The notes beneath the pieces are model-generated. The model searched no databases. It was not told where the DNA came from and worked only from the letters and a program-made list of their open reading frames with translations. A DNA stretch of 45,276 nucleotides from an uncultured Candidatus Woesearchaeota archaeon (GTDB lineage Archaea > Nanobdellota > Nanobdellia > Woesearchaeales > 21-14-0-10-32-9). Shown here piece by piece: positions 9,241-34,892 of this stretch. The stretch spans positions 1 to 45,276 of the forward strand of contig CAITEO010000002.1 of the NCBI GenBank assembly GCA_903891505.1. The letters are read 5' to 3'. Position numbers and translations under genes: made by a program. The first letter of the stretch is position 1. Every line of letters starts with the position of its first letter.

Positions 9241-12114
9241 TCATATTTTCAATGCATACTTGAGTGTTCCTAGGGATTCGTCGCCGGTGAGAGAGGAGCA
9301 AATGTACATGTATTTCTGAGTTGGGATGCAAGCCTGCAGCGTATTATTTACTGCGTTCACCACAAGATTTCCTTTCACTGTGAACGTTTGTATTTTAGTC
9401 ATGTTTAATGTTATGAATGGCACAGATCCTAAAATATTTAATTGAGTGTCTATCACATCATCATTATCTACATCAGTTAATGTTTCGTTAGATATTTGCA
9501 CATTATTCAAAACTTTTGCTGATTTTATTGTACAGGTGCAGGCATCGCCAACACTCGCGCATTCTGTTAATGACTTTGCAAATCTAACCAATTCTTCATG
9601 GGCAATATCTGTTGGATTAGGTGAAATATCTTCGAAATTTTCGACAAATACTGCATTTGCCTCTTTGCTATAATTTACTTTTACAAGCACCTGATCATTT
9701 AGTTTTAGGAGTTGATTTGTCTTGTATAATTCGCTTTCTTCATTTTCATAATCTGTCCAAACTGACGCATTTGAGATTATTTTTATCACGAGTTCGCCAG
9801 TCGAATCTTTTATTTTTATTGTCGCGTTTGGATCTGCAAGAAGTTCGGCCAAAGTTATTTCTTTGTCATTAAATATTTGTGTTTGTACACCCTGAGTTTG
9901 CATCGCCTGATTCAAAGGTCCTTTTGCTCTCGTCTGTATATCTGTTATTTTTCCTAATAATAACCCTTTCTGGTCAGGCGCGAGCTTACTTGATATCTTT
10001 ACGTTATAATCAGAAATAGACATTATGTCGTCTTCTAATTCTTTGTCACATACACTAACTTTAAGTTCTGGGTCTTGCCCAGCAGATTGGATTTGGTTTG
10101 AGATGCAATTATCCTTCTCAGCACCTTGTTTTGTCGTGCACAAATTTATTGTTTGCTTAAAGAATTCTTTCGTGTTATCAAAAAGTTTTGTTACATTATA
10201 TATTCTTGTTTGAAATGAATATTTTGCCAAGTACGTTCCAGCTTCTGTCTCTACTGTATCTGATGTTCCTGAAAAGTCCTCGCTCGGCATCTGGAAATTT
10301 GAGTCTAGAACGCATACTTCTGCACGATCTTTTATTTGTGATTGAAATGCTTTTTCTTGAGTTTTTCCTGCGCCTCCATAAATATCTATGTGGTCACATG
10401 CAAGTGCTGAACCTGTGTCTTCGACAATATAGTATCCATTTTTACTATTTCCTTCTCCCCAATAAATGTATAATTTTGCGCCTCTTTTGAATCTTGAGTC
10501 ACATTTCGCCGCGACTGTTCTTCCAGGAATAGGATCTGTGCCCATAGCTGTTACTCCGTTTTTATGTCCTGAAATTGTTGGACTTTGAGTGGGACCAAGA
10601 GGACTTATAGTTTCTGCTTTGAATACTTGTCCATTCATTGATCCACTTCCTTGACATCTTACTGCAGGAAAGAATGAGTCTTGTTTTAGGCAGCATTGAT
10701 ATGATGTTCCACATGCACCACCTACAGACCAAATACCGAAGTCGTTGAAAAATGGAGTGTAATAAACTGTTGTTCTTATATTTTTGAAGCAGTTCTTCTC
10801 GTTTATATCAGCCGGTAGTCCTGCTGCTTTTGCGGTTATAATTTTTAGATCAGCGTTAGCTTCAGGATTTGTTGTCTTTGTGTCTACAATTACGTTTCCT
10901 GTTCCTGCATTGTTTCCATTTGTATTTCCATTCGCGTTCGTATTGCCCGTCCCGATGCTGCTTTGCATTTTGCTGAGTTTATCTTTCGCATCAGTTATTA
11001 TTTGGTTCTCGCTATTTTTTATATCTGAGGATGGATCTGTTCTGCTCGTATCTATTTCGCTATCTAAAAGAACTGTCTTCATTGAAAGATTTATTTCGTT
11101 CCTATTTGCTATTTCTGCAAGTAAATTCTTGAGCGCGGCAATTTGCTGTGGAAGATGTGCATGAGGTGCACTATTCAATAATGCCACAGATATCGCTGTT
11201 CTGTCTGCATCTTCATACATACAAGTCTTTGATGTGGATTTCAAGCAGTACGCGCTCTTCGTGTATCTTGATTCTGGGGTGAATAGAAATACTTTGCCGT
11301 TCTTGTCTATGATATAGTTGTAATTTCTCAGTCCTGTTTTTAATTCGTTGTATGTTTCTTCGATTGAACTCGTATCGGTATCATGAACTATTATTGTTGT
11401 AGGAACATCATTCTGTCTTCTTGCAAAAGATGCCAGTATAGAATATTTTCTTGCTACTTGATATCCGTCTTCATTTGTCACAACATCATCTATTGTTGTT
11501 CTTGCTGTTTTTGTTTTGTCAGCAACACTATAGTAAGACTCCACATATGCATAAACTGGTATGCCAAGATCCGTCAAAGATTGCACCCATATTTTCATGT
11601 TTCCATTTTCTTTCACAATAACTGTATCAAGTTCGTCAACATTTATCTTAAGAGGATCATATTTTAGAATTAGACTGTTCATATTTTTAATGAACTCTGA
11701 TTTGAACATCTGTTCATAATCTGGAAAACATTCATCAATGTTTTTCTGAGAATCTATTATAGGATATGTTAGTTTTCCGCAACCTGCATTCTGTATTTTT
11801 CCTTTGAACGTCTCCTCTGAATAACCTGATGCAGATATTGTTGAAGTTGCTGCTTCTTTGGCCGCAATATCTATTGATGCATCCATGTAAAAAAATACTC
11901 TTTCTGTCGCCTCGAATGTATTTATTATTTTTATAGGTGTTTCGCCCATATCTCCTACTTTAGAACTGAGATCGCTTACTCTAAATATGAGTATGGCTGC
12001 GAATATGAATCCTGCAAATAAAAATAATAACAGAGTAATATTTCCTTTCTTCCCGATTACTTTTGAACCAAACAATCTTTTTGTTTGTTCTTTTGTGTTT
12101 ATTCTTTTTTTCAT
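9241..12114 (-). CDS. pilin-like-anchored surface protein with amidase_2-like and 3D (MltA/RlpA-like) peptidoglycan-lytic domains
   Basis: N-terminus GKKGN-ITLLLFLFAGFIFAAILIF. Residues ~236-362 read TTIIVHDTDTSSIEETYNEL...NYNYIIDKNGKVFLFTPESRY...AISVALLN (amidase_2-like). Residues ~445-582 read GRTVAAKCDSRFKRGAKLYIYWGEGNSKNGYYIVEDTGSALACDHIDIYGG (three-Asp 3D domain). Confidence 0.8.
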   Translation of the reverse strand: MKKRINTKEQTKRLFGSKVIGKKGNITLLLFLFAGFIFAAILIFRVSDLSSKVGDMGETPIKIINTFEATERVFFYMDASIDIAAKEAATSTISASGYSEETFKGKIQNAGCGKLTYPIIDSQKNIDECFPDYEQMFKSEFIKNMNSLILKYDPLKINVDELDTVIVKENGNMKIWVQSLTDLGIPVYAYVESYYSVADKTKTARTTIDDVVTNEDGYQVARKYSILASFARRQNDVPTTIIVHDTDTSSIEETYNELKTGLRNYNYIIDKNGKVFLFTPESRYTKSAYCLKSTSKTCMYEDADRTAISVALLNSAPHAHLPQQIAALKNLLAEIANRNEINLSMKTVLLDSEIDTSRTDPSSDIKNSENQIITDAKDKLSKMQSSIGTGNTNANGNTNGNNAGTGNVIVDTKTTNPEANADLKIITAKAAGLPADINEKNCFKNIRTTVYYTPFFNDFGIWSVGGACGTSYQCCLKQDSFFPAVRCQGSGSMNGQVFKAETISPLGPTQSPTISGHKNGVTAMGTDPIPGRTVAAKCDSRFKRGAKLYIYWGEGNSKNGYYIVEDTGSALACDHIDIYGGAGKTQEKAFQSQIKDRAEVCVLDSNFQMPSEDFSGTSDTVETEAGTYLAKYSFQTRIYNVTKLFDNTKEFFKQTINLCTTKQGAEKDNCISNQIQSAGQDPELKVSVCDKELEDDIMSISDYNVKISSKLAPDQKGLLLGKITDIQTRAKGPLNQAMQTQGVQTQIFNDKEITLAELLADPNATIKIKDSTGELVIKIISNASVWTDYENEESELYKTNQLLKLNDQVLVKVNYSKEANAVFVENFEDISPNPTDIAHEELVRFAKSLTECASVGDACTCTIKSAKVLNNVQISNETLTDVDNDDVIDTQLNILGSVPFITLNMTKIQTFTVKGNLVVNAVNNTLQACIPTQKYMYICSSLTGDESLGTLKYALKI

Positions 12115-12256
12115 CGTTTGTTTTATCTCGCATTTTGTTATTTATTTTTTGTTTATCTTATCTTTTCTTATCATTTGTATGTTTTGTCTTAGCTTTTCGG
12201 CACCATTATTTTATTTTATATTCTCATTATTTTATTATCTGTTGCTCAATTCTCAT

Positions 12257-13429
12257 CTAATTAGGAAATGAACAAACTTTTATTCCTGCTGATCTTTTCT
12301 CCTCTGTTTTTCCCCATTGGAATGAACCATATTCAAAGTGCCAGGTTTCTTTTTTCCATCGTACAAATCCCGCATCGCACATAATGCTTTCTGCAAGAGC
12401 TAAATTTGTTCCGCCCGCACCATTTAGCTTTGTTCCATCTTTTGTGTATAATATAGCATCGACTGCAGTCCCATCTAAATGTCCTGATGGATTTGTGAGC
12501 TTGTCCGGATTTCTTGCGAAACGGCAATCGTTATTGCTGCAATCACATCCTTCTTTGCACGCTTTTTCATAAAGCGCCATTTGAATTTCTTTTGTTCTAT
12601 ATGCTTGAGTTATTACAAGTTTCATTTCTTTTGGTCGAAGTTCTGTTTCAGAGATATTTTTAAGTCTATCTACAAGCGCAGGCGTAGCATAACATATTTT
12701 TCCAACAGTCGTGTCTGTTTCATCACAAACAACGTTTGGGATATTTTCTATTTTTACAAGCTGCTCCCCGTTCGGAGAAATTGGCCCTGTTCCGCTAGAC
12801 TCGTAGCCCTTAAGCAGCCCTGCTTTGTATCCGAAAACTCTCGGTTGTCGTTTATCCATATCTGTTGCTAATTTAAAGACGACGAGTTTGTTTTTTCCAT
12901 CTGGATTCGGCACTGTTGTTTTTGGTAATTTGTCTATTGTTCCCGGGTCACAAGAATCTACGGAAACAGGAATTGAAATGAATGGCATAACACTCACCAC
13001 TACTCCTACTGTCGCTTTAGAATTTTGTGTGCCTGTTGAAGTGAGTAAATAGCACTTATCATCCACAATAACTAACCATGTGTCTGTCATTCTGCCATCA
13101 GGATAGAATTTTGAAAGTGCGACCACTAATTGCTCGTTGAATGACGCCATACCTGCGTCTGTAGTTATATCTGCATCCGCGACAAGATTGTATACTTTGT
13201 AACCTGCGCGTACATCTTGATCAAGCACCATTCTTGTCGAGAAGAATCCGCCGGCTACATTTATGTCGCTAGTGATTTTGTCTTGCTGATTCTTAAGACC
13301 TGTATAGAGAAAGACGAGCAAAACTCCGAAAATAATCAAGAACCCTATACCTACTAGGAACAAAGATGCGAAATCTTCAAATTGCCCTTTTTTATTCAAG
13401 ATTATTTTATTCAACTTGGTTTTGCTCAC
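12257..13429 (-). CDS. pilin-like-anchored M15 (VanY/LAS-type) peptidoglycan peptidase
   Basis: N-terminus NKKGQ-FEDFASLFLVGIGFLIIFGVLLVF. The C-terminal domain is LVITQAYRTKEIQMALYEK...NPSGHLDGTAVD (exact SxHxxGxAxD, nt 12458-12488)...ETWHFEY (nt 12329-12343). GTG start with a GGAGAT SD upstream. Confidence 0.8.
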   Translation of the reverse strand: MSKTKLNKIILNKKGQFEDFASLFLVGIGFLIIFGVLLVFLYTGLKNQQDKITSDINVAGGFFSTRMVLDQDVRAGYKVYNLVADADITTDAGMASFNEQLVVALSKFYPDGRMTDTWLVIVDDKCYLLTSTGTQNSKATVGVVVSVMPFISIPVSVDSCDPGTIDKLPKTTVPNPDGKNKLVVFKLATDMDKRQPRVFGYKAGLLKGYESSGTGPISPNGEQLVKIENIPNVVCDETDTTVGKICYATPALVDRLKNISETELRPKEMKLVITQAYRTKEIQMALYEKACKEGCDCSNNDCRFARNPDKLTNPSGHLDGTAVDAILYTKDGTKLNGAGGTNLALAESIMCDAGFVRWKKETWHFEYGSFQWGKTEEKRSAGIKVCSFPN

Positions 13430-13578: not shown

Positions 13579-14073
13579 TTAATCGCTTCCTGCTTTATGA
13601 AAAAAAGTCAGTATAGCTGGTCTTTCTAACCCATGATCATATACATAAACGAAGTATTTTGTCATTGTAACTTTCTGCGCGTTTAATCCCCAATTTTGAG
13701 ATTCTATGAAATCTACATATTGCATATTGCTAGTGTTCATTCTTATTTCTGCAGCCATTGCATGTTTCGCCGTACCTACTAGCGGAACACATTCCCTAAG
13801 AACTTGCTCATTAAATCTTTCAATATCTATAACTCCTGTGTATACTCGTCCCGTGTCGTCTTTATACGCAAAACAATTAGGAGAATAAAGAACTCTTGCT
13901 TCGTAGACTGTTGGTTCTACATTATTATTGACAAATATTTGTCTGAGTGATGCTGTCCAAGCTACGGCTATAGCTACAATTAGACCTATAAAAATAAGCA
14001 TTATTATCCAGAATAAGCCCTTATCCGCCTCGCTTATTAATCCTTTTTTGTTGATTTTTATTGCTCGTCCCAT
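13579..14073 (-). CDS. class III signal (pilin-like) protein, unknown mature domain
   Basis: N-terminus NKKGL-ISEADKGLFWIIMLIFIGLIVAIAVA, with a GAGGA SD upstream. Confidence 0.6.
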   Translation of the reverse strand: MGRAIKINKKGLISEADKGLFWIIMLIFIGLIVAIAVAWTASLRQIFVNNNVEPTVYEARVLYSPNCFAYKDDTGRVYTGVIDIERFNEQVLRECVPLVGTAKHAMAAEIRMNTSNMQYVDFIESQNWGLNAQKVTMTKYFVYVYDHGLERPAILTFFHKAGSD

Positions 14074-14147: not shown

Positions 14148-15062
14148 TTAGTTAGTTAATCCTTGATTTATTGCGTCAAAGAGCTCCTTTGAAATCTGCG
14201 ATGTCAATCTTACTGAGTTATCTTTTGAAAGATTAATATACTTCTCAGCAGGCCCGAATACAACTTTTATTTCTTGTTTACTTGACGCAATCATTTGTAT
14301 TGATTTAAATTGATCTGCGTGATTTAATTGAATTGTTCTTTGCATATAACATGCAATTCTTTTGCTCCACGCGGTGTTAAGTGGATGCTGCGGATCTTCA
14401 TAATAATAAATGTTAATCCCCTCTGTTTGTGATGTTCCGAATGAAAATATGAACGCATCATTTGTTGTACTTGCATCATTTTGATCTAAGTAAGCAACTT
14501 TTGTATTTGGATCATATCTTGCTTTTGAATTAAGCGTAGTTGCAAGCAATTGAAGATATGTCTTTGCTTCTCCTGATTCGTCTGACTGTACGAAAAATCT
14601 GACTGCCATTTTTGAATTTGCATTGTTAAATGTTTGTGGAATGCTCACGCAATTATCTGTAAAGCTAACATCTTCATTCGTGAATTTTAATGTAGAATCT
14701 TTCAACGACATTGGTATTGACAGCGTGTTTTGTATTATTGCTGCAGTAATAGTTATTCCCCTCATAGAAAAGTAAGGATATCTTCCTGCTCCATCTTTTG
14801 AAATTATGATAACCTCATCTGGGGTTATCTGAACTTTGTATTGTTCAGTATTTTTTTCATAATTGTAGGCTATATCATATGGCGCAGCAGATATAGTCAT
14901 GATTGAAAGCGCGAAATCCTTGGACATTACTTGTTCAGTCGAACCAAACATGAGTTTGGGAACAGATATGATAAGAATAACCATTATTGAAACTCCGACA
15001 ACGAGCTCTGCTATAGTATAGAGCATACTTCTTGTCGCATCAACCCCTTTCTTATTCATCAT
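14148..15062 (-). CDS. class III signal (pilin-like) protein, unknown mature domain
   Basis: N-terminus MMNKKGV-DATRSMLYTIAELVVGVSIMVILIISV. The YTIAELVV stretch is reminiscent of the bacterial FTLIEL pilin helix. The ATG at 15062 is preferred over the track TTG at 15065. GGAAGGGG SD upstream. Confidence 0.65.
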   Translation of the reverse strand: MMNKKGVDATRSMLYTIAELVVGVSIMVILIISVPKLMFGSTEQVMSKDFALSIMTISAAPYDIAYNYEKNTEQYKVQITPDEVIIISKDGAGRYPYFSMRGITITAAIIQNTLSIPMSLKDSTLKFTNEDVSFTDNCVSIPQTFNNANSKMAVRFFVQSDESGEAKTYLQLLATTLNSKARYDPNTKVAYLDQNDASTTNDAFIFSFGTSQTEGINIYYYEDPQHPLNTAWSKRIACYMQRTIQLNHADQFKSIQMIASSKQEIKVVFGPAEKYINLSKDNSVRLTSQISKELFDAINQGLTN

Positions 15063-15148
15063 CAAAAACCCCTTCCATCTCGTCCAATATTAATATAATT
15101 TCTCTAACGTTTTTCTGAATTTGTTTCTCTAAATTTATTCCTTTAAAT

Positions 15149-15922
15149 TCAGTAATTCTTTAGGCACTCATCTGTAAAGCATAATTTTATTGTGTTATCA
15201 GGATTTTTAACAACGTAAACATCAGCATAGCTTGTCACAAACATATATTTATATCCTGTATAGCCAATTTCTTGAGCAGCTGTCGGATTTTTGTAGTATC
15301 TCCAAAAAGACATTCCTCCTTGCCATCTGTAAACGTAACTGTTGTCTCCAAGATGAAGCTCTGAATCTTTAGTCTCATCCACCCCTGCTCTTTTTTTGAG
15401 CGCTTCGTAATTTGTAGAATCCATTATTTTTTCAAGAAAAGTATTTTCCTGAAAATCCACATCACTAATATTTGTGCATTCTATTTTTTTCTCACAGTTC
15501 AATGTTGTAGCGAGGGTTCCTGTATTTTTATATGTCGTGTTTGAGAATCCTGGTGAATACTCTGTGCATAAACATATGCATGTATTTCCGACAGGAGGAC
15601 AATCTACGGGACGAGGCACGTATCTTTTGTATCCGCTGGGAAATATTTCTATTACTTCTTCTGCGTTTTTGTTGAAAACGTAAATCGCGGTTCCTTCGTC
15701 GAGAGTTACGCTAACCAGCTTCATCTTTATGTTGCCACTTTTGTTTGCAACTTCGTGCATTGCAGCAATAAGTGCGTTTGTACTCTCATCAGACGCTTTG
15801 TGCGATTTTAGTGCTTTTGATATTGCGCTAAACGTGATTAGAAAAAGAAAAATAAATACTACTAATCCAATGATGAATGTTAACATCACTCCTTCTGCTG
15901 CTTTTCTGTTCATCTTTCTCAT
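15149..15922 (-). CDS. class III signal (pilin-like) protein, Cys-containing mature domain
   Basis: N-terminus NRKAA-EGVMLTFIIGLVVFIFLFLITF. Its ATG overlaps the upstream stop (ATGA), indicating translational coupling. Confidence 0.6.
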   Translation of the reverse strand: MRKMNRKAAEGVMLTFIIGLVVFIFLFLITFSAISKALKSHKASDESTNALIAAMHEVANKSGNIKMKLVSVTLDEGTAIYVFNKNAEEVIEIFPSGYKRYVPRPVDCPPVGNTCICLCTEYSPGFSNTTYKNTGTLATTLNCEKKIECTNISDVDFQENTFLEKIMDSTNYEALKKRAGVDETKDSELHLGDNSYVYRWQGGMSFWRYYKNPTAAQEIGYTGYKYMFVTSYADVYVVKNPDNTIKLCFTDECLKNY

Positions 15923-16446: not shown

Positions 16447-16512
16447 TTTATTACCTCCAAATATGATTTTCACGATCCGTTGTTATCTTATTATTTACTA
16501 TTCTAAGTTTAA

Positions 16513-17972: not shown

Positions 17973-17974
17973 AA

Positions 17975-19449: not shown

Positions 19450-19572
19450 TTAAACAATTTTGTATATTAAATAAACGCCATACATAAGCAACAAAAATAG
19501 CACAACAAATAAGATGGAAATAATCAACGTTTTTGTCATTGATTTTTCCTCTCCTTTTCTAGATAGCGCCAT
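19450..19572 (-). CDS. 40-aa mini pilin-like peptide (not in the ORF track)
   Basis: Translation MALSRKGEEKSMTKTLIISILFVVLFLLLMYGVYLIYKIV*. It has the same SRKGE motif as the next gene. A consensus TATA box has its centre 26.5 nt upstream of its ATG, and an oligo-T terminator of the preceding unit lies upstream. Confidence 0.45.
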   Translation of the reverse strand: MALSRKGEEKSMTKTLIISILFVVLFLLLMYGVYLIYKIV

Positions 19573-27870: not shown

Positions 27871-30800
27871 TTAAGTACAACGTCCTGTTATTGGATCGCA
27901 GATTGTAACTTCTGGCTGCGAGAAGTTCAAATTTCTTATGTTCAGTAATTTCTGTTGACTACCTATGTTACTTGGAACTCCTTTGTCTCCGACTGTGATG
28001 TTTAAATAAACCTTAACGTAAATATTTGGTGCGTCGTAGACTTTTTCATCGCCATCTGCCACTGTTTCAATAGGAAGCAACTGTACAATATCTCCTGTGC
28101 TTACGTTCCTGTAATACTCTGTGACATTCATGCTATTCTTGCAACCAAATGAATAATTCCTCGAACCAGTCTCAAGATTTGAAGAGTAGTCGCTGCAAAC
28201 GAACTTTATGTTAACAGACGCAGTTGCAATTGAACTATTATACACATCGCCTGTTGCGACATCGTAAAGTGTTACTGTTGGTGCGGTTTCGTCAATAGCA
28301 TAGTAAATTATATCTCCTCCATTCCCAATATACCAAACTGGAGTTGAACCTGCAGTTGCGTTGAAATTGCATGCAGAATAGAAGAACCTCATCATCTGTA
28401 CCGTTTCATTTATTGTCGCGCTGTGTTTTATTCCGTTAGAAGAATCATTATATTTAGTCCAAATAGTGCTATCAGGAACTATAGTAATAGGCGCTATTAT
28501 TGCATTATGATTTGTAGTATAATAACATGCCGCTGATGCGTTTGTCTCTAAAGATATATTCACATTTCCTTTCCTGAATGTTTCTCCTCGAGGTTTTGGA
28601 TTGTGTATTGATTTATCTGCATCTATTTCTACGTATGTGTTGTTTGTGAAACTCTGCAGGTGATCATCAGTACAAACAGTATGGATGTTGTATTCTCCGT
28701 CTGGAAGATAATTATAATTCCAAATTAAATTTGGCGTGCTCTTTGTTGCATCCTCGATAAAACTCAAAGTTGAATCATGTATGTTTGTCAAGTTCACTCT
28801 GCAAATTATTGTTTTTGCAGGATCATAAATTATATTTACTGTAAGATTTGTCAGGTACATATCCGCTCCTCCATCATATGCTGATGAAAGAGTGTAATTT
28901 ACTAATATGCTTGAAAGGTCAGGTAATAAAGTAAAGTCGATATGCTTGAGAACTTCTAGATTCATCGCAATATCTTTGGAGTAATAGTACAATCTATATT
29001 TTCCTGCAATTTTGCCAACTATAGATGTCTTAAACTGTGTTAATGTGTCTGTTTCTTTAGGATAAACAAATGCGTATGTATTCTCTGGTGGTGCTAAATT
29101 TGCTGGCGCATTCAAGCGGGCATCGTCTCCTAAATCATCTTTTCCACCCATAGTTACATATGTATTCACAACTTGCTCTGATGTTTCTGGCGCGAGTAGT
29201 TCTAGCTCTGCAACTGAATAAGATTCGCCATCTTTAACGACTTGGTCATTAAAACGCAATGTTGTATTAGGATTTTCAAAGTCAAGACAATATTGCATCT
29301 TATCTTGCTTATCGCTACAGGAATCACCCGGCACTGATTTGACTGCCTCTGAAAGTGGAGTGAAATCAGCATTTCTTATGCATCTTTGTTTCTCGTCGAG
29401 CCAGACGCATTTGCCTCTTTTCAATGTATCGTTGCTCAGAGTTATTATTGAATTATCAAGTCCTACTCTCACTAAATTAGTATTATCATATGTTACATTC
29501 TCAGTAAAATTCATATTGCCAACGCATTGATTTTTTGAATCGTATGTTTCACAAGCTACATCTCGTTGATTAATGCATGATGAATTATCAAATTTAACAT
29601 GGTTATAATTTATGATGGAATTATAGAAACAAGTGCTCTGTCCTGACGAATTCTGACCGAACAAATTACATAATGATTCAGGACAGTAATCGCCTAGTAT
29701 GTGTAAATCATTGCACTTTGAGCATTCTTGAAGATCAGGATTTTTAGGAATACAAACACCGATGCCTAATTCGTCATTGTTTGAAAGATTCATCCATTCG
29801 CAATCATTTGCTGCGAGCGTGTCGCATGGGTTGCTCTCACAAGAAGTCTTCGTGCGATAATCATAGCATGTTTGTATTTCTGTGCATGCGTGGTATTTTC
29901 CTATAATTGAACCAATAGTATCTGTGTTGTTCTTCGCGAAATCATCCGCAAAACATTCTCCTCCTTTGTACTCAGTATCAACACCAGCGAGTGCATCTGC
30001 GCAAAATTGATAAGGTGAAATATATCCTGGAAGAGAATCCAGTTCATAATTTATGTACGGCATCACGCCGAATGGACCGCTGCACACAGCACATATATCA
30101 CATTTTTCGCTGTTTGTCGTCTTATCATCGCAGCGTGCATCTCCTCCTAAAACAGTTGGTGCAATGCAACCGCAATCACATGGATTAGTAGTTGTAATTT
30201 TTCCATCAATACATTCAGTAAGATTATTACCTACGCAAATTTTTCCATTTCCTTTCATATCGCCTATTCCTATGCACTTATCATCCCAAATCGTGGCGCA
30301 GGCTAACTTATCTGGGCCTATTTTTAATAATTGATTTAATGGATCAGTAATTGATACAGAAATATTATAGCAGTAAGCTGTCTTTCCCGTATTATCTAAG
30401 CTACCAGTAAAATCTGACCATGTGAATGTTGCACCAGAAACTTTTTGTGGTATACGTCTTGGACTTGTGGATGCTTTGCATTTTGTTGGATGTATTGGAT
30501 CGTCTGCCACACATCTGAAGATATCTATCGTGCTTACTTGACAAGGTGTAGGTAATTGCCAATCGAGTTGTATTCCTTTTCCAAATCCATTTCCGAGTGG
30601 TTGAGGATAATCAAATATTCCTTTCGCTGTTAGATTAACTTTTGAATTATTGTCGCAAACTGGAGCACAAAGCGATGTAGTGGCACACACTGAGTTGTTA
30701 CAAGTACAGAACATTTGATTTGTACATCCTGATAAGTCAGTAGGGCATTTTAAACAATTCGCAGCATACTTACATTCATTAGTGCATGTAACTGTTCCAA

Positions 30801-31662
30801 CAAAATTCTGATTAGGAAAATAATAATCACAAGTTCTAGCTAAAGGCAAAATTATTGGTTCGCATTCTTCAGGACTTTCCAATTTTCCGTCACCGCATGA
30901 CGTTGCACCGACGCAAGGAGTGTAATTAAGAGGTATATTATTTAGCGTTGGAGGATTACAATTTCCTGAATCGGTTACTGTTCTATTTCCACAAATCCCG
31001 CTTGTATCCTGCCAAGGCCCGACGTTCCATTTTGTGATGCAGTTTTGACTTGGAGAATTACATGGAAGAGTTAAATTAAGTTCATATGGACCTATTGAAC
31101 TTGTTGTTAAAATAGAATTTTGTACAGTGCAAGAGGGTGTTCCTGATGCTGTCGCATTTACTAAGTAATTAGTATTTTTATTTACCATCAAGCTATAATA
31201 TCCTTGATTGTTTGTTGATAAAATTGAATAAACTCCTACACCTGCATTTATATCATGTATATTTACATTTGCAGACGATGCAGGAATTCCATCGTGATAA
31301 AAAACGTAGCCCTCAAGTTTAACATTCCCCTTGCAAAAGTTTTGGCAATCTGGATCAGACTTATATTCATTGGAATAATTGCCGTTAGACAACATACACG
31401 CACCTTGCGTGGATAAACCACAACTCCCTAAAAGAACACAACAAACTGTACTGCAATTATCAATATCAGAGCAATCTCTACCAGGGTAAAATACGCCGAT
31501 TGAAGAACAACTAGATGTTTCAGTCATGATACAAGTTCCTGATGAGTTAGTAACACAGCAACCAGTTTGAGGTCTTGTTGCAGAAACAATTGCTGGTAAG
31601 AATAAGAGCAGTAACCCTAGAACTAAAACAAAAACTCCAAGTTTAGCGTCGTATCTCATCAT
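27871..31662 (-). CDS. 1263-aa secreted Cys-rich, sequon-rich surface protein
   Basis: Sec signal ...AIVSA|TR. It has a CarboxypepD_reg-like segment (VKLEGYVFYHDGIPASSANVNIHD...NNQGYYSLMV), the motif SCGDGKLESPEECE, and very many Cys and N-x-S/T sites. A strong GGAGAGGG SD lies upstream. Confidence 0.8.
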   Translation of the reverse strand: MMRYDAKLGVFVLVLGLLLLFLPAIVSATRPQTGCCVTNSSGTCIMTETSSCSSIGVFYPGRDCSDIDNCSTVCCVLLGSCGLSTQGACMLSNGNYSNEYKSDPDCQNFCKGNVKLEGYVFYHDGIPASSANVNIHDINAGVGVYSILSTNNQGYYSLMVNKNTNYLVNATASGTPSCTVQNSILTTSSIGPYELNLTLPCNSPSQNCITKWNVGPWQDTSGICGNRTVTDSGNCNPPTLNNIPLNYTPCVGATSCGDGKLESPEECEPIILPLARTCDYYFPNQNFVGTVTCTNECKYAANCLKCPTDLSGCTNQMFCTCNNSVCATTSLCAPVCDNNSKVNLTAKGIFDYPQPLGNGFGKGIQLDWQLPTPCQVSTIDIFRCVADDPIHPTKCKASTSPRRIPQKVSGATFTWSDFTGSLDNTGKTAYCYNISVSITDPLNQLLKIGPDKLACATIWDDKCIGIGDMKGNGKICVGNNLTECIDGKITTTNPCDCGCIAPTVLGGDARCDDKTTNSEKCDICAVCSGPFGVMPYINYELDSLPGYISPYQFCADALAGVDTEYKGGECFADDFAKNNTDTIGSIIGKYHACTEIQTCYDYRTKTSCESNPCDTLAANDCEWMNLSNNDELGIGVCIPKNPDLQECSKCNDLHILGDYCPESLCNLFGQNSSGQSTCFYNSIINYNHVKFDNSSCINQRDVACETYDSKNQCVGNMNFTENVTYDNTNLVRVGLDNSIITLSNDTLKRGKCVWLDEKQRCIRNADFTPLSEAVKSVPGDSCSDKQDKMQYCLDFENPNTTLRFNDQVVKDGESYSVAELELLAPETSEQVVNTYVTMGGKDDLGDDARLNAPANLAPPENTYAFVYPKETDTLTQFKTSIVGKIAGKYRLYYYSKDIAMNLEVLKHIDFTLLPDLSSILVNYTLSSAYDGGADMYLTNLTVNIIYDPAKTIICRVNLTNIHDSTLSFIEDATKSTPNLIWNYNYLPDGEYNIHTVCTDDHLQSFTNNTYVEIDADKSIHNPKPRGETFRKGNVNISLETNASAACYYTTNHNAIIAPITIVPDSTIWTKYNDSSNGIKHSATINETVQMMRFFYSACNFNATAGSTPVWYIGNGGDIIYYAIDETAPTVTLYDVATGDVYNSSIATASVNIKFVCSDYSSNLETGSRNYSFGCKNSMNVTEYYRNVSTGDIVQLLPIETVADGDEKVYDAPNIYVKVYLNITVGDKGVPSNIGSQQKLLNIRNLNFSQPEVTICDPITGRCT

Positions 31663-31730: not shown

Positions 31731-34700
31731 TTACGTCCATCCTGAGCTTGGATTGCATGAAAGACCTGTAACATTCGCCCTGCAATCTTTGTTAAAATTA
31801 CAAATACCTGCGGATGTACATAATGGAGATGGTGGTATTTGTGATGGCCAATAAATACAGCAAGTTTTGCCTGCTTGCGCACCAGTACCTGGAAAAGTCT
31901 CTCCTTTAACACATTTATCTCCCTGCAAAGCTCCTCCTCCATTCGCATCGCAATGCGATATTCTACAATACTCACCAGATAAACACCCAACAGTTCCTTG
32001 ATAATTATTTGACGGAGGAGTACAATATATTTGATTTGATGATCCGAACGAACACATATTACTTAAAGTTGGATTTAAGTTACAATTTGATTTACACATT
32101 GTGCTTCCAACAGCCCATTCAAATGAGTATGCTGCGTCGCATTGTGCCGCACCACATGCAGATTTACTACACAAGCAATTCCATGCTCCTGCACATACAC
32201 CGCTACCATCACATGTTCCTTGGCAATAAGCTTTTCCTGTGCTTGCACCATACCCTCCAACGCCTGGCGTGGAACAAGTACGAGCAGTATTGCATATTCC
32301 TGTTCCTGTTGATGGGTTGAACGTTTTCTCAAATGTTGTTCCAAATCCGTACTTTGTACAGCCAGCAGGCGCTATATTTGTTATCTGATCCGGTCCCGTG
32401 CATGCTTCGTTTAAAGTTCCTTTCGCCGTGCAAGGCCACAACACTGTATATGTTGCGAACATTGGTCCAGCACAAATATTTCCTCTATTTCCATCACAAT
32501 TTCTGTCAAACGTTAGATTATAGACGTCGTTATATTTTCCACCTGTTGGAAAAACACCTGGAGGTGGAGATTGAGTTAAAGAGAATGTGTATTGATAATT
32601 CGCAAGCTCGCTAATTTTTGTAAGAGTTGGATTTGTTGATTGTGTTCTTAATTTTTCAAGTTCTCCGTACAAGCTCGTCATGTAACAGATGTCGAATGTT
32701 GTTTTACGTTTAAACACAGTGGCTTGATCCAAAAGCGATCCTGTTGTTCCCGTGCAACAAGTGTGATTTGCAGTGAATGGATCTGTAGTTACTGCGTTGT
32801 ATGGATATATTAGAGTAGTATTATGATGCGGTACACATTCTGTAACGTTCACTCCGACTCCGACAGGCACTGAATAAACAGGTTGATTTGTTAGAGGAAT
32901 ATTGGATTCCACGACGAGTGTTACGTTGTGTATGCCAACATTTGAAAGATTGAGTGGTTTTATTTTTTGTATAAGTATATTTTTGTCTGTGATAATTGTT
33001 GAAAATTCTGTTGGGATTGTTATCAGTGGATTACTTGATTTATTATAGAATACTGACTGCCAATCAGGAATAGCTGCGTTCCACCAGAATATTGTCCAGA
33101 TGTAATTAGTTATGCTGCCTCCCATTATAATTGAACCTCTGCTCGCAGAACCATCTAGTGGAAGCATATCTTCTACGCTCGCAATATTTTCAGGGATGTC
33201 GTTGTATATTTTTATTTTTGAAATGTTTGCAACAGGCAAATCAAACACGAGTATCTTTACTACCTGATAATCGAACAGCCCTGACTCGTCTTTTACTGTC
33301 AGAGTTACATTGTGTGGTCCGTAATCAGAAACATTAGTTGTGTAATTAGCCATTCTGTGTGTTTGTAAAAACATGCCTGAATTTGACCAGTTGTGAGGTG
33401 CTAAAGCAGGAGACATAACTATTTGTTTGCAAAGTATGTTCTGACCTGTATTTCCATTTATGCTTGGCAGCGTGCAATTATCATCGTAGTCTTCTTTCCA
33501 TCCATTGTATATATACCAAACGTTCTGATCGTCAGGATCGTAGCCCCAAGGATCGATGACTATTGTTTGGTTGTTTGAAGCTATAATATCATAATAATTT
33601 GGCGCGTCAGTCTGATGAATAAAATCTAGGGCAGGTATTCTGTTCTTGAGCGCAGTTATGTATGTTAGTGATCTGTTGCCAATCAACGACGCGTTGTCTT
33701 TTACAATAAGAAGATGGTCATACTTGTATTGGCATAGTGGCCATGTGCACGTAGAATCATTCTCAAATCCTACTACTTGAACACTCATGTGCTCCGGGTC
33801 GTAATAATCAGATATTTCTCCTCCTAATTCAAGATGATTTGCGTAACTCGCATAATCTTTTGACAGATTAAACAAAAAGTCTTTGCTGTCTGCTTTGAGC
33901 AAAGCCATGACATAGTTGTGCATTCTCACAATTCTTAGTTTTGAATCATACTTGAATAAGTGCTTCACGAGTACTGGCTGCTTGTTTTTTATACTGACAG
34001 TAAAATTGTAAATAGACTCCACAGAGATTCCCTCTGTTGTTAGTATAACTTTAGTTACTGGATCATTTAATATTGTTATATTATCTCCTTGTGCATTCTC
34101 AAATATTGAAAAATCTACACAATTCTTTAATCGTTTAGATATCTGGCTTTGAAGAAGATATTCTACTGATTGATTTTTTGCATTTGCACTTATCACATTC
34201 ATCATGTTGTTGTTTGGAATGCATGGGCTGAACATTAGGCTAGTAGAACCAGGCGTTCCTATGGGCTTCGTATTTTCACTTCCCATGTAACAGAGTCTTG
34301 ACATGTTGTTGTAGCCCGCAAATCCTGAAAGTCTATATCCCTCGTTAAAATTTAGTAAACATGAGCCCGTATTTTCATATAATGGATAGAGTTCTGATAT
34401 GTATTGGTTTGATTTGTTCGGGTATTCTGGAACATTAAGATTAACGATGTTACAATAACTATTGTTAAGCACAGAATATGAAACGTTAAAACGCAGCGTT
34501 CTTACACTTCCATTTGTACTTGTAAAATTTAAACTGTAAGGTATGTAAATTGTACCGATTGTATTTGGGCGTGATATGTTATTTGGACCGCCCTGATATG
34601 TGTAAAATGTTCCTCCTTGCAAAGAAAGATCATCTATTGAAGATGTAACTGCTGCATCCATGCAAGTGTAAACATAGTAGTTGATTGATTCTGAAGCTAA

Positions 34701-34892
34701 ATAATTATTAACTGCATTCGAGGCGTCCTGCTGGAGTTTAATTTTTGTAATAGTTGATATTCCGCTCATTGCGATAATTACGACCACTAGAATTACTATT
34801 CCTAGAATTACGAAGACAGTAACTTGCCCTTTAGGAGTTACTTTGCACTTCATCTTTCTATTTTTTCTCAATTTTTTGGCGCCAATAGACAT
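31731..34892 (-). CDS. 1053-aa protein with class III (KGQ) signal, PKD-like modules and Cys-rich C-terminus; first gene of the cluster
   Basis: N-terminus KVTPKGQ-VTVFVILGIVILVVVIIAM. PKD-like strings YGPHNVTLTVKDESGLFDYQVVKILV and VGIHNVTLVVESN are present, and the C-terminal ~300 aa are Cys/Gly-rich. Confidence 0.8.
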   Translation of the reverse strand: MSIGAKKLRKNRKMKCKVTPKGQVTVFVILGIVILVVVIIAMSGISTITKIKLQQDASNAVNNYLASESINYYVYTCMDAAVTSSIDDLSLQGGTFYTYQGGPNNISRPNTIGTIYIPYSLNFTSTNGSVRTLRFNVSYSVLNNSYCNIVNLNVPEYPNKSNQYISELYPLYENTGSCLLNFNEGYRLSGFAGYNNMSRLCYMGSENTKPIGTPGSTSLMFSPCIPNNNMMNVISANAKNQSVEYLLQSQISKRLKNCVDFSIFENAQGDNITILNDPVTKVILTTEGISVESIYNFTVSIKNKQPVLVKHLFKYDSKLRIVRMHNYVMALLKADSKDFLFNLSKDYASYANHLELGGEISDYYDPEHMSVQVVGFENDSTCTWPLCQYKYDHLLIVKDNASLIGNRSLTYITALKNRIPALDFIHQTDAPNYYDIIASNNQTIVIDPWGYDPDDQNVWYIYNGWKEDYDDNCTLPSINGNTGQNILCKQIVMSPALAPHNWSNSGMFLQTHRMANYTTNVSDYGPHNVTLTVKDESGLFDYQVVKILVFDLPVANISKIKIYNDIPENIASVEDMLPLDGSASRGSIIMGGSITNYIWTIFWWNAAIPDWQSVFYNKSSNPLITIPTEFSTIITDKNILIQKIKPLNLSNVGIHNVTLVVESNIPLTNQPVYSVPVGVGVNVTECVPHHNTTLIYPYNAVTTDPFTANHTCCTGTTGSLLDQATVFKRKTTFDICYMTSLYGELEKLRTQSTNPTLTKISELANYQYTFSLTQSPPPGVFPTGGKYNDVYNLTFDRNCDGNRGNICAGPMFATYTVLWPCTAKGTLNEACTGPDQITNIAPAGCTKYGFGTTFEKTFNPSTGTGICNTARTCSTPGVGGYGASTGKAYCQGTCDGSGVCAGAWNCLCSKSACGAAQCDAAYSFEWAVGSTMCKSNCNLNPTLSNMCSFGSSNQIYCTPPSNNYQGTVGCLSGEYCRISHCDANGGGALQGDKCVKGETFPGTGAQAGKTCCIYWPSQIPPSPLCTSAGICNFNKDCRANVTGLSCNPSSGWT

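What the first reader, a model, noticed from the sequence alone, without database searches (positions are those of the whole stretch)
9241..34892. 25.6-kb one-strand cluster in which 18 of 21 ORFs begin with a class III (prepilin-like) signal, with no assembly machinery in the window
Seen in sequence: every ORF from 9241 to 24502, plus the 1053-aa ORF at 31731-34892, has a basic dipeptide + G/A followed directly by an 18-25-residue hydrophobic helix. The motif lies within the first ~10-35 residues.

The 18 N-termini, in gene order, are: TPKGQ-VTVFVILGIVIL, NRRAQ-TQQVFIYLMAILIV, QKKAQ-IEITFHWIFVLIAG, CKKGQ-LQSGETVVVIIIV, VKRGQ-IETMGLLVIVIL, MKKGD-MSINLIIVAAIAL, PKKGE-MSINMIIMVVIAI, NKKGD-SSVIKILMTVVLVL, SRKGE-EKSMTKTLIISILF, SRKGE-DATIGTLATMIIAIL, GRKGL-IKSTLIRIILIAIL, GRKGE-DSAGLGTLITIIILV, NKKGS-ISMGLKILMTIVIL, NRKAA-EGVMLTFIIGLVVF, NKKGV-DATRSMLYTIAELVV, NKKGL-ISEADKGLFWIIMLIF, NKKGQ-FEDFASLFLVGIGF, GKKGN-ITLLLFLFAGFIF.

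The genes are tightly packed (gaps mostly under 150 nt, two ATGA overlaps), and internal genes carry GAGG/GGAGG SD sites, so the block is operon-like.

Established knowledge: a [KR]-G/A cleavage site placed before the hydrophobic stretch is the hallmark of archaeal class III signal peptides. These are processed by A24 prepilin peptidases (PibD/FlaK/EppA) and assembled into pili, archaella or bindosome-like structures.

Inference: 18 different pilin-like subunits in a row, from 40 to 1053 aa, far exceeds characterised archaeal pilus loci. Those have a few pilins next to an ATPase and a platform gene. I recognise no archaellin or known adhesive-pilin domain here. No PilB/FlaI-type ATPase, PilC/FlaJ platform or A24 peptidase lies anywhere in the 45 kb. 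This looks like an undescribed multi-subunit surface filament or cell-contact apparatus.
Basis: partly seen in the sequence, partly recalled or inferred. Interest (0 to 1): 0.9.

Follow-up and report, generated by a model that had tools for sequence, protein, structure and literature searches.

The report
Pilin-like gene island with cell-wall-cutting enzymes
A tiny symbiotic archaeon (Woesearchaeota) carries a conserved block of about 20 genes for pilus-type surface proteins, and the last ones carry enzymes that cut bacterial cell walls, which suggests an appendage for gripping and opening bacteria.

Summary
On the minus strand, 9241-34892 contains 20 tightly packed genes. Eighteen begin with a basic residue pair plus G/A and a single hydrophobic helix (P about 2e-25 against the rest of the same proteins). 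The motif is conserved in orthologues at 23-58% identity.

The block is a syntenic island of Woesearchaeota/Nanoarchaeia (DPANN). I found it in more than 10 lineages, often next to the same RPA-like gene. No pilus ATPase lies anywhere in 634 kb of flanking DNA.

- The last two genes fuse the pilin-like N-terminus to peptidoglycan-active domains: a VanY/LAS peptidase with intact motifs, and Amidase_2 plus 3D.
- In a distant lineage the same terminal position carries Peptidase_M23 plus SLT instead.
- The first gene (1053 aa) is predicted to be a long N-terminal helix followed by tandem Ig/cadherin-like domains.
- Five proteins have Gln at +1, as EppA substrates do. Two paralogues of 81 and 91 aa look like major subunits.

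Best reading: a repertoire of modular pilin-like proteins for a type IV filament machine encoded elsewhere, used to contact bacteria and breach their murein.

Cleavage, polymerisation and the machinery are untested. No known pilin model or solved fold matches. DPANN pilin islands and Woesearchaeal murein hydrolases were each reported before; I found no paper that links them. New variant of a known kind.

The parts
31731..34892 (-). First gene, 1053 aa. Class-III-like N-terminus of the Gln+1 type (PKG|QVTVFVILGIVIL). Predicted adhesin-like modular pilin.
   Evidence: In 24 homologues Q23, T25 and F27 are invariant. AlphaFold2 mean pLDDT is 75: a helix over residues 22-91, then tandem beta-sandwich domains and a Cys-rich C-terminus. 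Foldseek matches cadherins, an RTX adhesin and Ig repeats at E about 1e-6. No Pfam or PDB sequence hit.
27871..31662 (-). 1263-aa surface protein with a Sec-type signal (..AIVSA|T). 5.9% Cys and 35 N-glycosylation sequons.
   Evidence: Weak CarboxypepD_reg hit. Positional orthologues in all relatives.
24538..27843 (-). 1101-aa type I membrane protein: Sec signal, TSP3 calcium-binding repeats, a C-terminal transmembrane segment (890-919) and a Lys/Glu-rich cytoplasmic tail.
   Evidence: TSP3_bac E 8.4e-10. Transmembrane segment and tail. Orthologues at 30-48% identity.
23951..24502 (-). 183-aa Gln+1 pilin-like protein (RRA|QTQQVFIYLMAILIVG).
   Evidence: Alignment of 17 sequences. AlphaFold2 pLDDT 80.7: N-terminal helix plus an alpha/beta domain. 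No PDB fold match, best E 0.2. The family has 1,688 representatives at E<=1e-3, with the motif conserved.
22822..23949 (-). 375-aa Gln+1 pilin-like protein (KKA|QIEITFHWIFVLIAG).
   Evidence: Orthologues at 33-50% identity with an invariant Q..F.W.F. No Pfam or PDB hit.
22226..22750 (-). 174-aa Gln+1 pilin-like protein (KKG|QLQSGETVVVIIIV).
   Evidence: hhalign finds N-terminal similarity to the 187-aa protein (91.6%).
21666..22229 (-). 187-aa Gln+1 pilin-like protein (KRG|QIETMGLLVIVIL). 4-nt overlap with the gene upstream.
21273..21548 (-). Small pilin-like protein. Its likely start is at residue 10 of the ORF, giving MKKG|DMSINLIIVAAIALIILVIL and an 82-aa product. C-terminal mini-domain with 6 Cys. 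Candidate major subunit.
   Evidence: A GAGG site precedes the internal ATG. Paralogue of the 81-aa gene, hhalign 99.1%. 11-sequence alignment with invariant K2, K3, S7 and six Cys.
20986..21231 (-). 81-aa small pilin-like protein (PKKG|EMSINMIIMVVIAIIILVIL). Candidate major subunit.
19760..20968 (-). 402-aa pilin-like protein (MNKKG|DSSVIKILMTVVLVL) with a Cys-rich head that varies in length.
   Evidence: Orthologues of 401-520 aa at 29-35% identity. No family hit.
19450..19572 (-). 40-aa micro-protein made only of the leader plus the hydrophobic helix (MALSRKG|EEKSMTKTLIISILF...).
   Evidence: Conserved as MLSRKG plus a helix in L001, L003 and L032. Called as a gene on the ENA copy of the contig.
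17975..19375 (-). 466-aa pilin-like protein (SRKG|EDATIGTLATMIIAIL) with a TPM domain.
   Evidence: TPM_phosphatase E 1e-6, 29.2 bits against a cut-off of 22.1. 12 homologues. Synteny anchor.
17769..17993 (-). 74-aa ORF, true start probably internal, encoding a small pilin-like protein (GRKG|LIKSTLIRIILIAIL).
   Evidence: Positional orthologues of 59-77 aa with KKG/KRG plus a helix and a conserved C-terminal ITQ[IM]FG.
16513..17757 (-). 414-aa pilin-like protein (GRKG|EDSAGLGTLITIIILV). Its C-terminal domain is shared with the 184-aa protein.
   Evidence: hhalign 92.3% over residues 327-406 against 71-155. Orthologues.
15919..16473 (-). 184-aa ORF; the likely start at residue 10 gives MNKKG|SISMGLKILMTIVIL. 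Contains a DxDxDG calcium-loop-like motif.
   Evidence: GGAGG precedes the internal ATG. Weak TSP_3 and Dockerin hits..
15149..15922 (-). 257-aa pilin-like protein (NRKA|AEGVMLTFIIGLVVF). 4-nt overlap with the gene upstream.
   Evidence: Weak ComGG minor-pilin hit, E 0.0046, below the cut-off.
14148..15065 (-). 305-aa pilin-like protein (MNKKG|VDATRSMLYTIAELVV).
   Evidence: Orthologues at 35-38% identity. Weak PG_binding_5 hit, E 0.013. No PDB hit.
13579..14073 (-). 164-aa pilin-like protein (NKKG|LISEADKGLFWIIMLIF).
   Evidence: Orthologues at 44-50% identity. Still recognisable in the distant islands L035, L036, L039 and L040.
12257..13429 (-). 390-aa pilin-like N-terminus (NKKG|QFEDFASLFLVGIGF) fused to a VanY/LAS-type zinc peptidase domain that acts on peptidoglycan.
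   Evidence: Peptidase_M15 E 3.3e-4 and VanY E 3.5e-3, both below the gathering score. The LAS motifs QAYRT..Q, SGHLDGTAVD and ETWHFEYG are conserved in 4 orthologues. Endolysin PHROGs hits.
9241..12114 (-). Last gene, 957 aa. Pilin-like N-terminus (GKKG|NITLLLFLFAGFIF) fused to an Amidase_2 domain (237-361) and a 3D domain (543-588).
   Evidence: Amidase_2 E 1.4e-9, 38.8 bits against 26. 3D E 1.9e-5, 25.2 bits against 23.8. Orthologues of 1174-1202 aa add a weak SGNH/GDSL hit. Zinc-ligand conservation is only partial. The same island position in L040 holds Peptidase_M23 plus SLT.
36135..42836 (-). Conserved upstream neighbours: a 1889-aa Sec-exported Cys-rich surface protein (37167-42836) and a Memo-like protein (36135-36995).
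   Evidence: The same pair lies upstream of the 1053-aa orthologue in L004, L006, L015, L017, L018 and L020. Memo E 1.2e-25.

Best explanation
The block is a lineage-wide island of Woesearchaeota (DPANN archaea). It encodes the substrate repertoire of a type IV filament (TFF) system whose ATPase, platform and class III signal peptidase are encoded elsewhere in the genome.

Shown:
- 18 otherwise unrelated proteins share only a short basic leader ending in G/A, followed by a hydrophobic helix.
- The island is collinear across many lineages.
- Its terminal genes carry peptidoglycan-cleaving domains.
- Its first gene encodes a long N-terminal helix followed by Ig-like repeats.

Inferred mechanism:
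1. An A24-type peptidase cuts after the G/A.
2. The freed hydrophobic helix lets the proteins be lifted from the membrane and stacked into a pilus or short pseudopilus.
3. The two small paralogues (81 and 91 aa) are the bulk subunits.
4. The four small Gln+1 proteins, with the 1053-aa adhesin-like protein, form the priming or tip complex.
5. The remaining 'modular pilins' display functional heads: a TPM domain, a VanY/LAS peptidase, and Amidase_2 plus 3D.
6. The appendage binds a bacterial cell and digests its murein locally, for attachment, feeding or cytoplasmic access.
For: - Motif statistics and conservation.
- Two signal classes. Gln is invariant at +1 in five families, and +1 Gln is the EppA requirement in Methanococcus (PMC4390842).
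- The only similarity shared among the families is the N-terminal 40 or so residues, as is typical of type IV pilins.
- The island is collinear in four full copies and in L015, L017, L036, L039 and L040. L039 has up to 17 consecutive motif-bearing genes, often beside the same RPA-like gene.
- The LAS motifs of the VanY-like domain are intact. Amidase_2 and 3D score above the Pfam cut-offs.
- Non-homologous murein hydrolase domains, Peptidase_M23 at 1.5e-21 and SLT at 1.5e-14, sit at the same terminal position behind the same kind of N-terminus in L040.
- The first gene has an adhesin-like predicted architecture.
- Literature: archaeal pilin genes often lie outside their machinery operons (PMC4858521). 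flaI, flaJ and flaK are found in most Woesearchaeota MAGs (PMC11606122). Functional proteins with class III signals are proposed to decorate archaeal TFF machines (10.64898/2026.04.22.720090). Modular pilins are established in bacteria (PMC8179133).
Against: - No cleavage, filament or machinery was shown.
- No T2SSE-type ATPase lies within 634 kb of DNA around 40 related loci, so the link to a TFF machine rests on the signal alone.
- No Pfam or NCBIfam pilin or archaellin model matches at E<=0.1.
- The strict FlaFind-type pattern fits only 4-5 of 18.
- The confident model of the 183-aa subunit matches no solved pilin (best E 0.2).
- The Amidase_2 zinc ligands are incompletely conserved.
- The VanY hit is below Pfam's gathering score.
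Confidence: 0.55

Rival explanations
1. Bindosome-like array, not a pilus. The proteins are cleaved by a class III signal peptidase but stay anchored at the cell surface by their N-terminal helix, or form only a very short stub. The result is a surface patch of adhesins and murein hydrolases, comparable to the Sulfolobus sugar-binding bindosome.
For: Most members are large, with functional heads that would be hard to pack into a filament body. Class III signals on non-pilin functional proteins are widespread in archaea and are often unlinked from TFF loci (10.64898/2026.04.22.720090, section 16). No ATPase is ever adjacent.
Against: The island also encodes headless or nearly headless subunits (40, 74, 81 and 91 aa) that make sense mainly as filament building blocks. 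It also has a set of four small Gln+1 proteins that resembles a minor-pilin priming set.
Confidence: 0.2
2. Ordinary uncleaved signal anchors. The basic residues plus a hydrophobic helix simply tether exo-enzymes and adhesins to the membrane (N-in, C-out) through the Sec pathway. The G/A has a structural role, and no TFF machine is involved.
For: The motif departs from the canonical class III pattern in most members. There is no pilin HMM or fold match. No machinery is linked.
Against: Positive-inside topology alone does not explain a strictly conserved G/A directly after the basic pair in 18 unrelated families and their orthologues, or the invariant Gln at +1 in five families. Leaders are very short, typically 4 residues. 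A 40-aa protein made only of leader plus helix has no obvious role as an anchor. The three true Sec proteins in the same cluster use a different signal of the VSA| type.
Confidence: 0.18
3. The hydrolases act on the archaeon's own envelope or serve general scavenging of free murein fragments. The island would then be a housekeeping surface-protein cluster rather than a device aimed at bacterial cells.
For: The target of the enzymes was not tested. The Amidase_2 domain may be a non-catalytic binding module.
Against: Archaea outside the Methanobacteria and Methanopyri are not known to make murein or pseudomurein, and archaeal peptidoglycan hydrolases have been shown to kill bacteria (PMC12352652). 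Four different bacterial-type murein-cleaving activities recur at the same position: LAS peptidase, amidase, and 3D or SLT transglycosylase plus M23 endopeptidase. They sit next to adhesin-like proteins.
Confidence: 0.1
4. An integrated virus or mobile element carrying adsorption and lysis genes.
For: Endolysin-type PHROGs hits for the VanY-like domain. A BRO-N protein lies at 43075-43920.
Against: There is no capsid, terminase, integrase or replication gene, and PHROGs gave no structural hit. The same chromosomal neighbours (RPA-like gene, Memo, SecY region) are found across genomes at 23-50% identity. Base composition is uniform.
Confidence: 0.02

Closest known systems
Methanococcus maripaludis Epd pili (archaeal TFF 'System 1'; EppA-processed pilins)
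   Same: Many different pilin-like proteins per system. Short basic leader ending in G. Gln at +1 in five of the families here, as EppA requires (PMC4390842). A very small major pilin that lacks a globular head. System 1 is reported in DPANN (10.64898/2026.04.22.720090).
   Different: The Epd locus holds 11 genes and includes its ATPase, two platform genes and its peptidase; here there are 18 substrates and no machinery. No sequence-model match to the Epd, DUF361 or Class_IIIsignal families. Thirteen members lack Gln at +1. Murein-hydrolase heads are not known in Epd.
Modular type IV pilins of bacteria (Streptococcus sanguinis PilB/PilC; PMC8179133), and the minor-pilin/PilY1 tip complex
   Same: A pilin-type N-terminus fused to a functional head. 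Four small pilin-like proteins are encoded next to an adhesin of more than 1000 aa. Functional modules are predicted to be displayed at the filament tip.
   Different: Archaeal-type leader with no N-methylation motif (IPR012902) hit. The heads here are murein hydrolases and a TPM domain. Neither tip-complex assembly nor a pilin fold was demonstrated.
Sulfolobus bindosome and other archaeal substrate-binding proteins with class III signals
   Same: Class III signals on functional, non-filament proteins that are encoded away from the TFF machinery.
   Different: Those are solute-binding proteins encoded next to ABC importers, one or a few per locus. Here there are 18 in one island, with hydrolases and adhesin-like proteins and no solute-binding domain.
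DPANN 'dark matter' islands of predicted pilins (Makarova, Wolf and Koonin 2019, PMC6393860, Fig. 2A)
   Same: Long runs of unannotated DPANN genes with N-terminal signals, interpreted there as diverse pilins.
   Different: Those islands were recognised through adjacent FlaI and TadC genes. This island never has them, and its hydrolase cargo was not discussed there. I could not see the figure, so identity with that island is untested.
Archaeal peptidoglycan hydrolases and 'vampiristic' Woesearchaeota (PMC12352652, PMC9723730)
   Same: Murein-cleaving domains in Nanoarchaeota/Woesearchaeota, including large SLT (GH23) transglycosylases such as the L040 terminal gene.
   Different: Those studies considered only Sec and Tat signals or CAZy content. 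Neither mentions pilins (0 occurrences), class III signals or the island context.

Membership tests
Archaeal class III signal peptide (type IV pilin-like) proteins | Short, positively charged leader ending in G/A at -1, directly followed by a hydrophobic stretch of about 20 residues at the extreme N-terminus | tested here: met
   18 of 18 proteins, conserved in orthologues, P about 2e-25. The typical leader is 4 residues in the 183-aa family. Many members have a polar or acidic spacer of 4-10 residues before the hydrophobic core.
Archaeal class III signal peptide (type IV pilin-like) proteins | Fit to the canonical FlaFind-type cleavage pattern [KRDE][GA][ALIFQMVED][ILMVTAS]x3 (pattern recalled from memory) | tested here: not met
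   Only 4-5 of 18 match: the 1053-, 402-, 91- and 81-aa proteins, plus one off-site match.
Archaeal class III signal peptide (type IV pilin-like) proteins | Match to curated pilin or archaellin N-terminal models in Pfam and NCBIfam | tested here: not met
   No such family at E<=0.1 for any of the proteins. The only hit is a sub-threshold ComGG match for the 257-aa protein (E 0.0046).
Archaeal class III signal peptide (type IV pilin-like) proteins | Pilin fold: a long N-terminal helix packed on a beta-sheet head | tested here: inconclusive
   The 183-aa model has helix 4-34, helix 40-53 and a beta-rich domain (pLDDT 80.7), but matches no solved pilin (best E 0.2). The 1053-aa model starts with a helix over 22-91 that begins exactly at the Gln.
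Archaeal class III signal peptide (type IV pilin-like) proteins | Cleavage by an A24 prepilin peptidase (PibD, FlaK or EppA) | not testable with these tools
   Needs proteomics or co-expression. Gln at +1 in 5 of the 18 fits the EppA rule (PMC4390842).
Type IV filament (TFF) system | Cognate secretion ATPase, polytopic platform protein and prepilin peptidase in the same genome | not testable with these tools
   Absent from the window and from 634 kb around 40 related loci. Whole genomes could not be searched. The literature reports flaI, flaJ and flaK in most Woesearchaeota MAGs (PMC11606122).
Bacterial modular type IV pilins | N-terminal pilin module carrying the N-methylation motif (IPR012902), plus an extra functional module | tested here: not met
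   Functional modules are present: TPM, VanY/LAS, Amidase_2, 3D and Ig-like repeats. No bacterial N-methylation motif was hit in Pfam. The resemblance is architectural only.
Sulfolobus-type bindosome | Class III signal on solute-binding proteins that are encoded with ABC importers | tested here: not met
   No solute-binding domain in any member. The only ABC system in the window is an ABC-2 type at 2329-5404 on the other strand, outside the island.
LAS / VanY (Peptidase_M15) murein peptidases | Zinc-binding motifs H-x6-D and a second His (ExWH), plus an HMM match | tested here: met
   SGHLDGTAVD and ETWHFEYG are conserved in 4 orthologues. The HMM scores are below the gathering score: 20.9 against 27 and 17.6 against 25.
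Amidase_2 (N-acetylmuramoyl-L-alanine amidase / PGRP) and 3D domain | HMM above the gathering score; zinc ligands His, His and Cys/Asp; the three Asp of the 3D domain | tested here: inconclusive
   Both HMMs score above their cut-offs. The first His is present in 3 of 4 orthologues, the second His does not align, and Asp sits at the Cys130 position of T7 lysozyme. The 3D motif EDTG..DHIDIY is present. The amidase domain could therefore be a binding module rather than a catalytic one.

The most novel reading that the evidence does not exclude
Woesearchaeota build a pilus-derived organelle that carries murein-cutting enzymes and adhesins as pilin fusions, and use it to latch onto bacterial cells and perforate their walls. 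This would be a cross-domain parasitic or predatory contact device of an archaeon against bacteria. It would be assembled by a generic FlaI/FlaJ-type machine, with two signal classes (Gln+1 and non-Gln) sorting tip and body subunits.
Probability: 0.3. Interest if true: 0.85.

Novelty: new variant of a known kind. Interest (0 to 1): 0.66.

Why it matters
The hosts of Woesearchaeota and how these archaea make contact with them are unknown. This island provides a concrete, widely conserved gene set that ties three observations together: the pilus-like structures seen on DPANN cells, the many class III signals in their 'dark matter' genes, and the puzzling bacterial-type murein hydrolases in their genomes.

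If the enzymes really ride on a type IV filament, that would be a new functional class of archaeal TFF system: enzyme display against another domain of life. It would also argue that some DPANN archaea live on bacteria rather than on archaea.

The idea is directly testable. The hydrolase heads can be assayed on sacculi, signal cleavage can be tested with PibD or EppA, and the island can be used as a marker in metagenomes and in cryo-ET of enrichments.

Tried and rejected
- Known-family assignment. Pfam, NCBIfam and PHROGs scans of all cluster proteins and of ten orthologues gave only the TPM, TSP3, VanY, Amidase_2, 3D and weak SGNH hits.
- PDB sequence searches. Single sequences (the 957- and 390-aa proteins) and profiles (A1-A4) found nothing meaningful.
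- Fold test of a small subunit. The 183-aa model is confident, but Foldseek found no pilin or any other match.
- Machinery. I looked for a T2SSE-type Walker A in every ORF of 40 loci (634 kb) and found only an MCM-like protein. The unannotated window ORFs 5516-6256 and 6280-6669 do not look like an A24 peptidase. I could not search whole genomes. The 620-kb and 233-kb contigs are reachable only 10 kb at a time and only around proteins already retrieved, so whether these genomes carry the machinery stays open.
- Virus or mobile element: rejected (plus the conserved chromosomal flanks).
- Tat signal: rejected, because the basic pair is mostly KK rather than RR and there is no Tat consensus.
- The 1889-, 1263- and 1101-aa proteins as class III substrates: rejected. 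Their orthologues have plain Sec signals with VNA|/VSA|-type sites.
- tRNA and Rfam scans of the window found nothing.
- The window's own contig is on record without DNA, and the window appears to be the whole 45,276-bp contig.

Full report
**1. What is in the sequence**

The window has about 36% G+C and no tRNA or Rfam feature. Between 9241 and 34892 the minus strand carries 20 ORFs. Coding density is 96%. Gaps run from -19 to 187 nt and there are three overlaps.

Every product has a single N-terminal hydrophobic segment. The other two products, of 1263 and 1101 aa, have ordinary Sec-type signals that end in VSA.

The tripeptide [KR][KR][GA] lies in the first 40 residues of 17 of the 20 cluster ORFs. 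The 1053-aa protein has PKG, and the 1889-aa protein upstream also carries the tripeptide. That makes 18 of the 21 proteins tested. Elsewhere in the same proteins the tripeptide occurs at 0.00076 per position, so the binomial P is about 2e-25.

**2. Origin and conservation**

Homologues of the 466-aa and 1053-aa proteins are few. Where a source names them, they are 'Candidatus Woesearchaeota' or 'Candidatus Nanoarchaeia'.

Three other full copies of the block have the same gene order at 27-58% protein identity:
- L001/L004 from GCA_053576915.1,
- L003 from a JGI metagenome,
- L032/L006 from the lineage of a 620-kb Woesearchaeota contig.

This shared order includes the VanY-like and Amidase_2 genes at the end and, in L001 and L003 at least, an RPA-like gene just beyond them.

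A scan of one genome per GTDB species found the 1053-aa family in 19 loci. All look Woesearchaeal or Nanoarchaeal by content and context, although 8 records are titled 'uncultured Methanosarcinales archaeon' and one 'uncultured archaeon'. The better-covered loci share a conserved core: a giant Sec protein, Memo, the protein of about 1000 aa with Gln at +1, two more giant Sec proteins, and four small Gln+1 proteins.

A metagenome scan seeded with the two small pilin-like paralogues found further collinear islands at 23-35% identity. L039 has 17 consecutive motif-bearing genes and again ends at the RPA-like gene.

A profile of the 183-aa family finds 1,688 representatives at 50% clustering. The island is therefore widespread and has no annotation.

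**3. The N-terminal signal**

In orthologues the leaders are short (MKG, MKKG, MNKKG). Several window ORFs therefore probably start at internal ATGs, some of which are preceded by GAGG or GGAGG.

There are two classes.
- Five families (1053, 183, 375, 174 and 187 aa) have an invariant or nearly invariant Gln right after the G/A, plus strongly conserved following residues such as QTQQVFIY, QIE.SF.W.F and QIQSGET. Among the 145 best relatives of the 183-aa family, 101 have [KR][GA]Q and the typical leader is 4 residues. A Gln at +1 is what the Methanococcus pilin peptidase EppA requires (PMC4390842).
- The other 13 have a variable +1 residue. By my reading of the N-termini, 13 of all 18 carry Asp or Glu within +1 to +6.

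An all-against-all profile comparison shows that, apart from two paralogous relationships, the families share only the first 40 or so residues. Type IV pilins behave the same way.

Several tests count against simple membership:
- A strict FlaFind-type pattern (recalled from memory) matches only 4-5 of the 18.
- No Pfam or NCBIfam pilin or archaellin model is hit.
- The AlphaFold2 model of the 183-aa protein (pLDDT 80.7) has an N-terminal helix and an alpha/beta head but matches no solved structure.

**4. What the proteins carry**

- The 1053-aa model (pLDDT 75) starts with a helix over residues 22-91 that begins at the Gln. Tandem beta-sandwich domains follow. They match cadherins, an RTX adhesin and Ig repeats at E about 1e-6. 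The C-terminus is Cys-rich.
- The 81- and 91-aa proteins are paralogues (99% hhalign probability). They have an MKKG leader, a 25-residue hydrophobic helix and a mini-domain of about 45 residues with six invariant Cys.
- A 40-aa protein made only of leader plus helix is conserved in three relatives.
- The 466-aa protein has a TPM domain.
- The 390-aa protein ends in a VanY/LAS peptidase domain. The HMM scores are sub-threshold, but the QxYR, SxHxxGxAxD and ExWH motifs are conserved in all four orthologues.
- The 957-aa last gene has Amidase_2 and 3D domains above Pfam's cut-offs. Its longer orthologues add a weak SGNH hit. The amidase zinc ligands are only partly conserved, so that domain might bind rather than cut.
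- In the distant island L040 the gene at the same terminal position (1311 aa, SNKKG|QVFIVG...) shows no BLASTP hit (E <= 0.01) to the 957-aa protein or any other cluster protein. It carries Peptidase_M23 (1.5e-21) and SLT (1.5e-14), with HxxxD, HxH and catalytic Glu-Ser motifs visible in the sequence.

Unrelated murein-cleaving domains recur behind the same kind of N-terminus at the same place in the island. This is the strongest indication of what the island is selected for.

The three or four giant Sec proteins are 3.5-5.9% Cys and have about 35 N-glycosylation sequons each. The 1101-aa protein has a C-terminal transmembrane segment and a charged cytoplasmic tail.

**5. Machinery**

The window encodes no T2SSE ATPase, T2SSF platform or A24 peptidase. 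The 634 kb held for 40 related loci encode none either; the only Walker A hit there is an MCM-like protein.

Most archaea keep pilin genes outside the machinery operons (PMC4858521). Functional proteins with class III signals are usually unlinked from TFF loci (10.64898/2026.04.22.720090). flaI, flaJ and flaK were detected in most Woesearchaeota MAGs of one study (PMC11606122).

I could not search the genomes that carry this island, so this point remains open.

**6. Explanation and rivals**

*Best explanation (0.55).* The island is the substrate set of a TFF machine encoded elsewhere: minor or tip pilins with an adhesin, two small bulk pilins, and modular pilins that display murein hydrolases. 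It is used to contact bacteria and breach their walls. The shown and inferred steps are separated in the Best explanation section.

*Rivals.*
- A bindosome-like surface array that is cleaved but forms no filament (0.2).
- Plain uncleaved signal anchors (0.18). This fits poorly with the invariant G/A and Gln, the 4-residue leaders and the headless 40-aa member.
- Enzymes aimed at the cell's own envelope or at free murein (0.1; this concerns the target and is independent of how the proteins are assembled).
- A mobile element (0.02). This is rejected by the conserved chromosomal flanks and the absence of viral genes.

**7. Comparison with what is known, and novelty**

The island works most like the Methanococcus Epd/System 1 pili (many pilins, Gln+1 signals, headless major pilin). 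It also resembles bacterial modular pilins with a four-minor-pilin and adhesin tip complex (PMC8179133). It fails the sequence-model and canonical-motif tests for membership in any described pilin family.

Three things were reported before:
- islands of predicted pilins in DPANN (PMC6393860),
- murein hydrolases in Woesearchaeota and Nanoarchaeota (PMC9723730, PMC12352652),
- the idea of functionalised archaeal TFF machines (the 2026 preprint).

In the paper searches run here, the papers read do not link murein hydrolases to class III signals or describe this conserved island. Term searches of the two hydrolase papers found no 'pilin', and of the preprint found no 'peptidoglycan' or 'hydrolase'.

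I therefore rate it a new variant of a known kind, with interest about 0.66.

Noticed in passing
L040:13639-17574 (+): The terminal island gene in a distant lineage is a 1311-aa protein with a class-III-like N-terminus. It carries Peptidase_M23 plus SLT domains in place of Amidase_2 plus 3D. It is probably the 'large lytic murein transglycosylase' type reported for Woesearchaeota.
   Followed up: partly
window 19450-19572 (-): A conserved 35-40-aa protein made only of M(L)SRKG plus one hydrophobic helix, that is, a pilin-like protein with no head. It is present in L001, L003 and L032.
   Followed up: partly
window 35652-35861 (-): A 69-aa ORF with a lipobox-like signal (LLVAG|C) and a Cys-rich mature part. 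It lies between the island and the Memo gene. Possibly a small secreted lipoprotein.
   Followed up: no
window 36135-42836 (-): A Memo-like protein and an 1889-aa Sec-exported Cys-rich protein are conserved directly upstream of the island in at least six other genomes. L004 also has a radical SAM gene nearby, which may point to an AmmeMemoRadiSam-type association.
   Followed up: partly
window 24538-27843 (-), residues 890-1101: The 1101-aa TSP3-repeat protein has a C-terminal transmembrane segment followed by a cytoplasmic tail of about 180 residues rich in Lys, Glu and Ser. It could link the surface assembly to the cell interior.
   Followed up: no
window 43075-45207 (-): A BRO-N domain protein (43075-43920) and a protein combining a winged helix-turn-helix with a minimal nucleotidyltransferase domain (44149-44574) lie at the right end. 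The second resembles the DPANN-typical MNT/HEPN family mentioned in PMC6393860.
   Followed up: no
L003:7228-7793 (-): A MazE-like antitoxin gene pair is inserted on the opposite strand inside the island of one relative, between the Gln+1 genes and the small pilin genes.
   Followed up: no
L032:16932-20540 (+), and window 9241-12114 residues about 400-440: Orthologues of the last gene have a weak SGNH/GDSL hydrolase hit between the Amidase_2 and 3D domains, possibly a peptidoglycan O-acetyl esterase. The window's protein has an Asn/Gly/Thr-rich low-complexity stretch there instead. The L032 amidase domain has Gln in place of the first zinc-binding His.
   Followed up: partly
L008:582-4939 (-): In a genome at about 30% identity the non-Gln pilin-like genes, including both small paralogues, sit in a divergently oriented block upstream of the Gln+1 core, separated from it by secY, an EMC3/YidC-like gene and rpl34e. 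The two modules therefore stay linked even after rearrangement.
   Followed up: partly
L015, L018, L019, L023, L026, L028, L031: Several GTDB representative records that carry the island are titled 'uncultured Methanosarcinales archaeon', although their content and context match Woesearchaeota. These are probably placeholder or wrong labels. L018 and L020 are high-G+C versions of the island.
   Followed up: no
window 1-45276: The protein database gives 45,276 bp as the longest contig that carries the window's proteins, so the window is probably the entire contig. An identical 9.9-kb fragment exists in ENA sample ERZ1426827.
   Followed up: no
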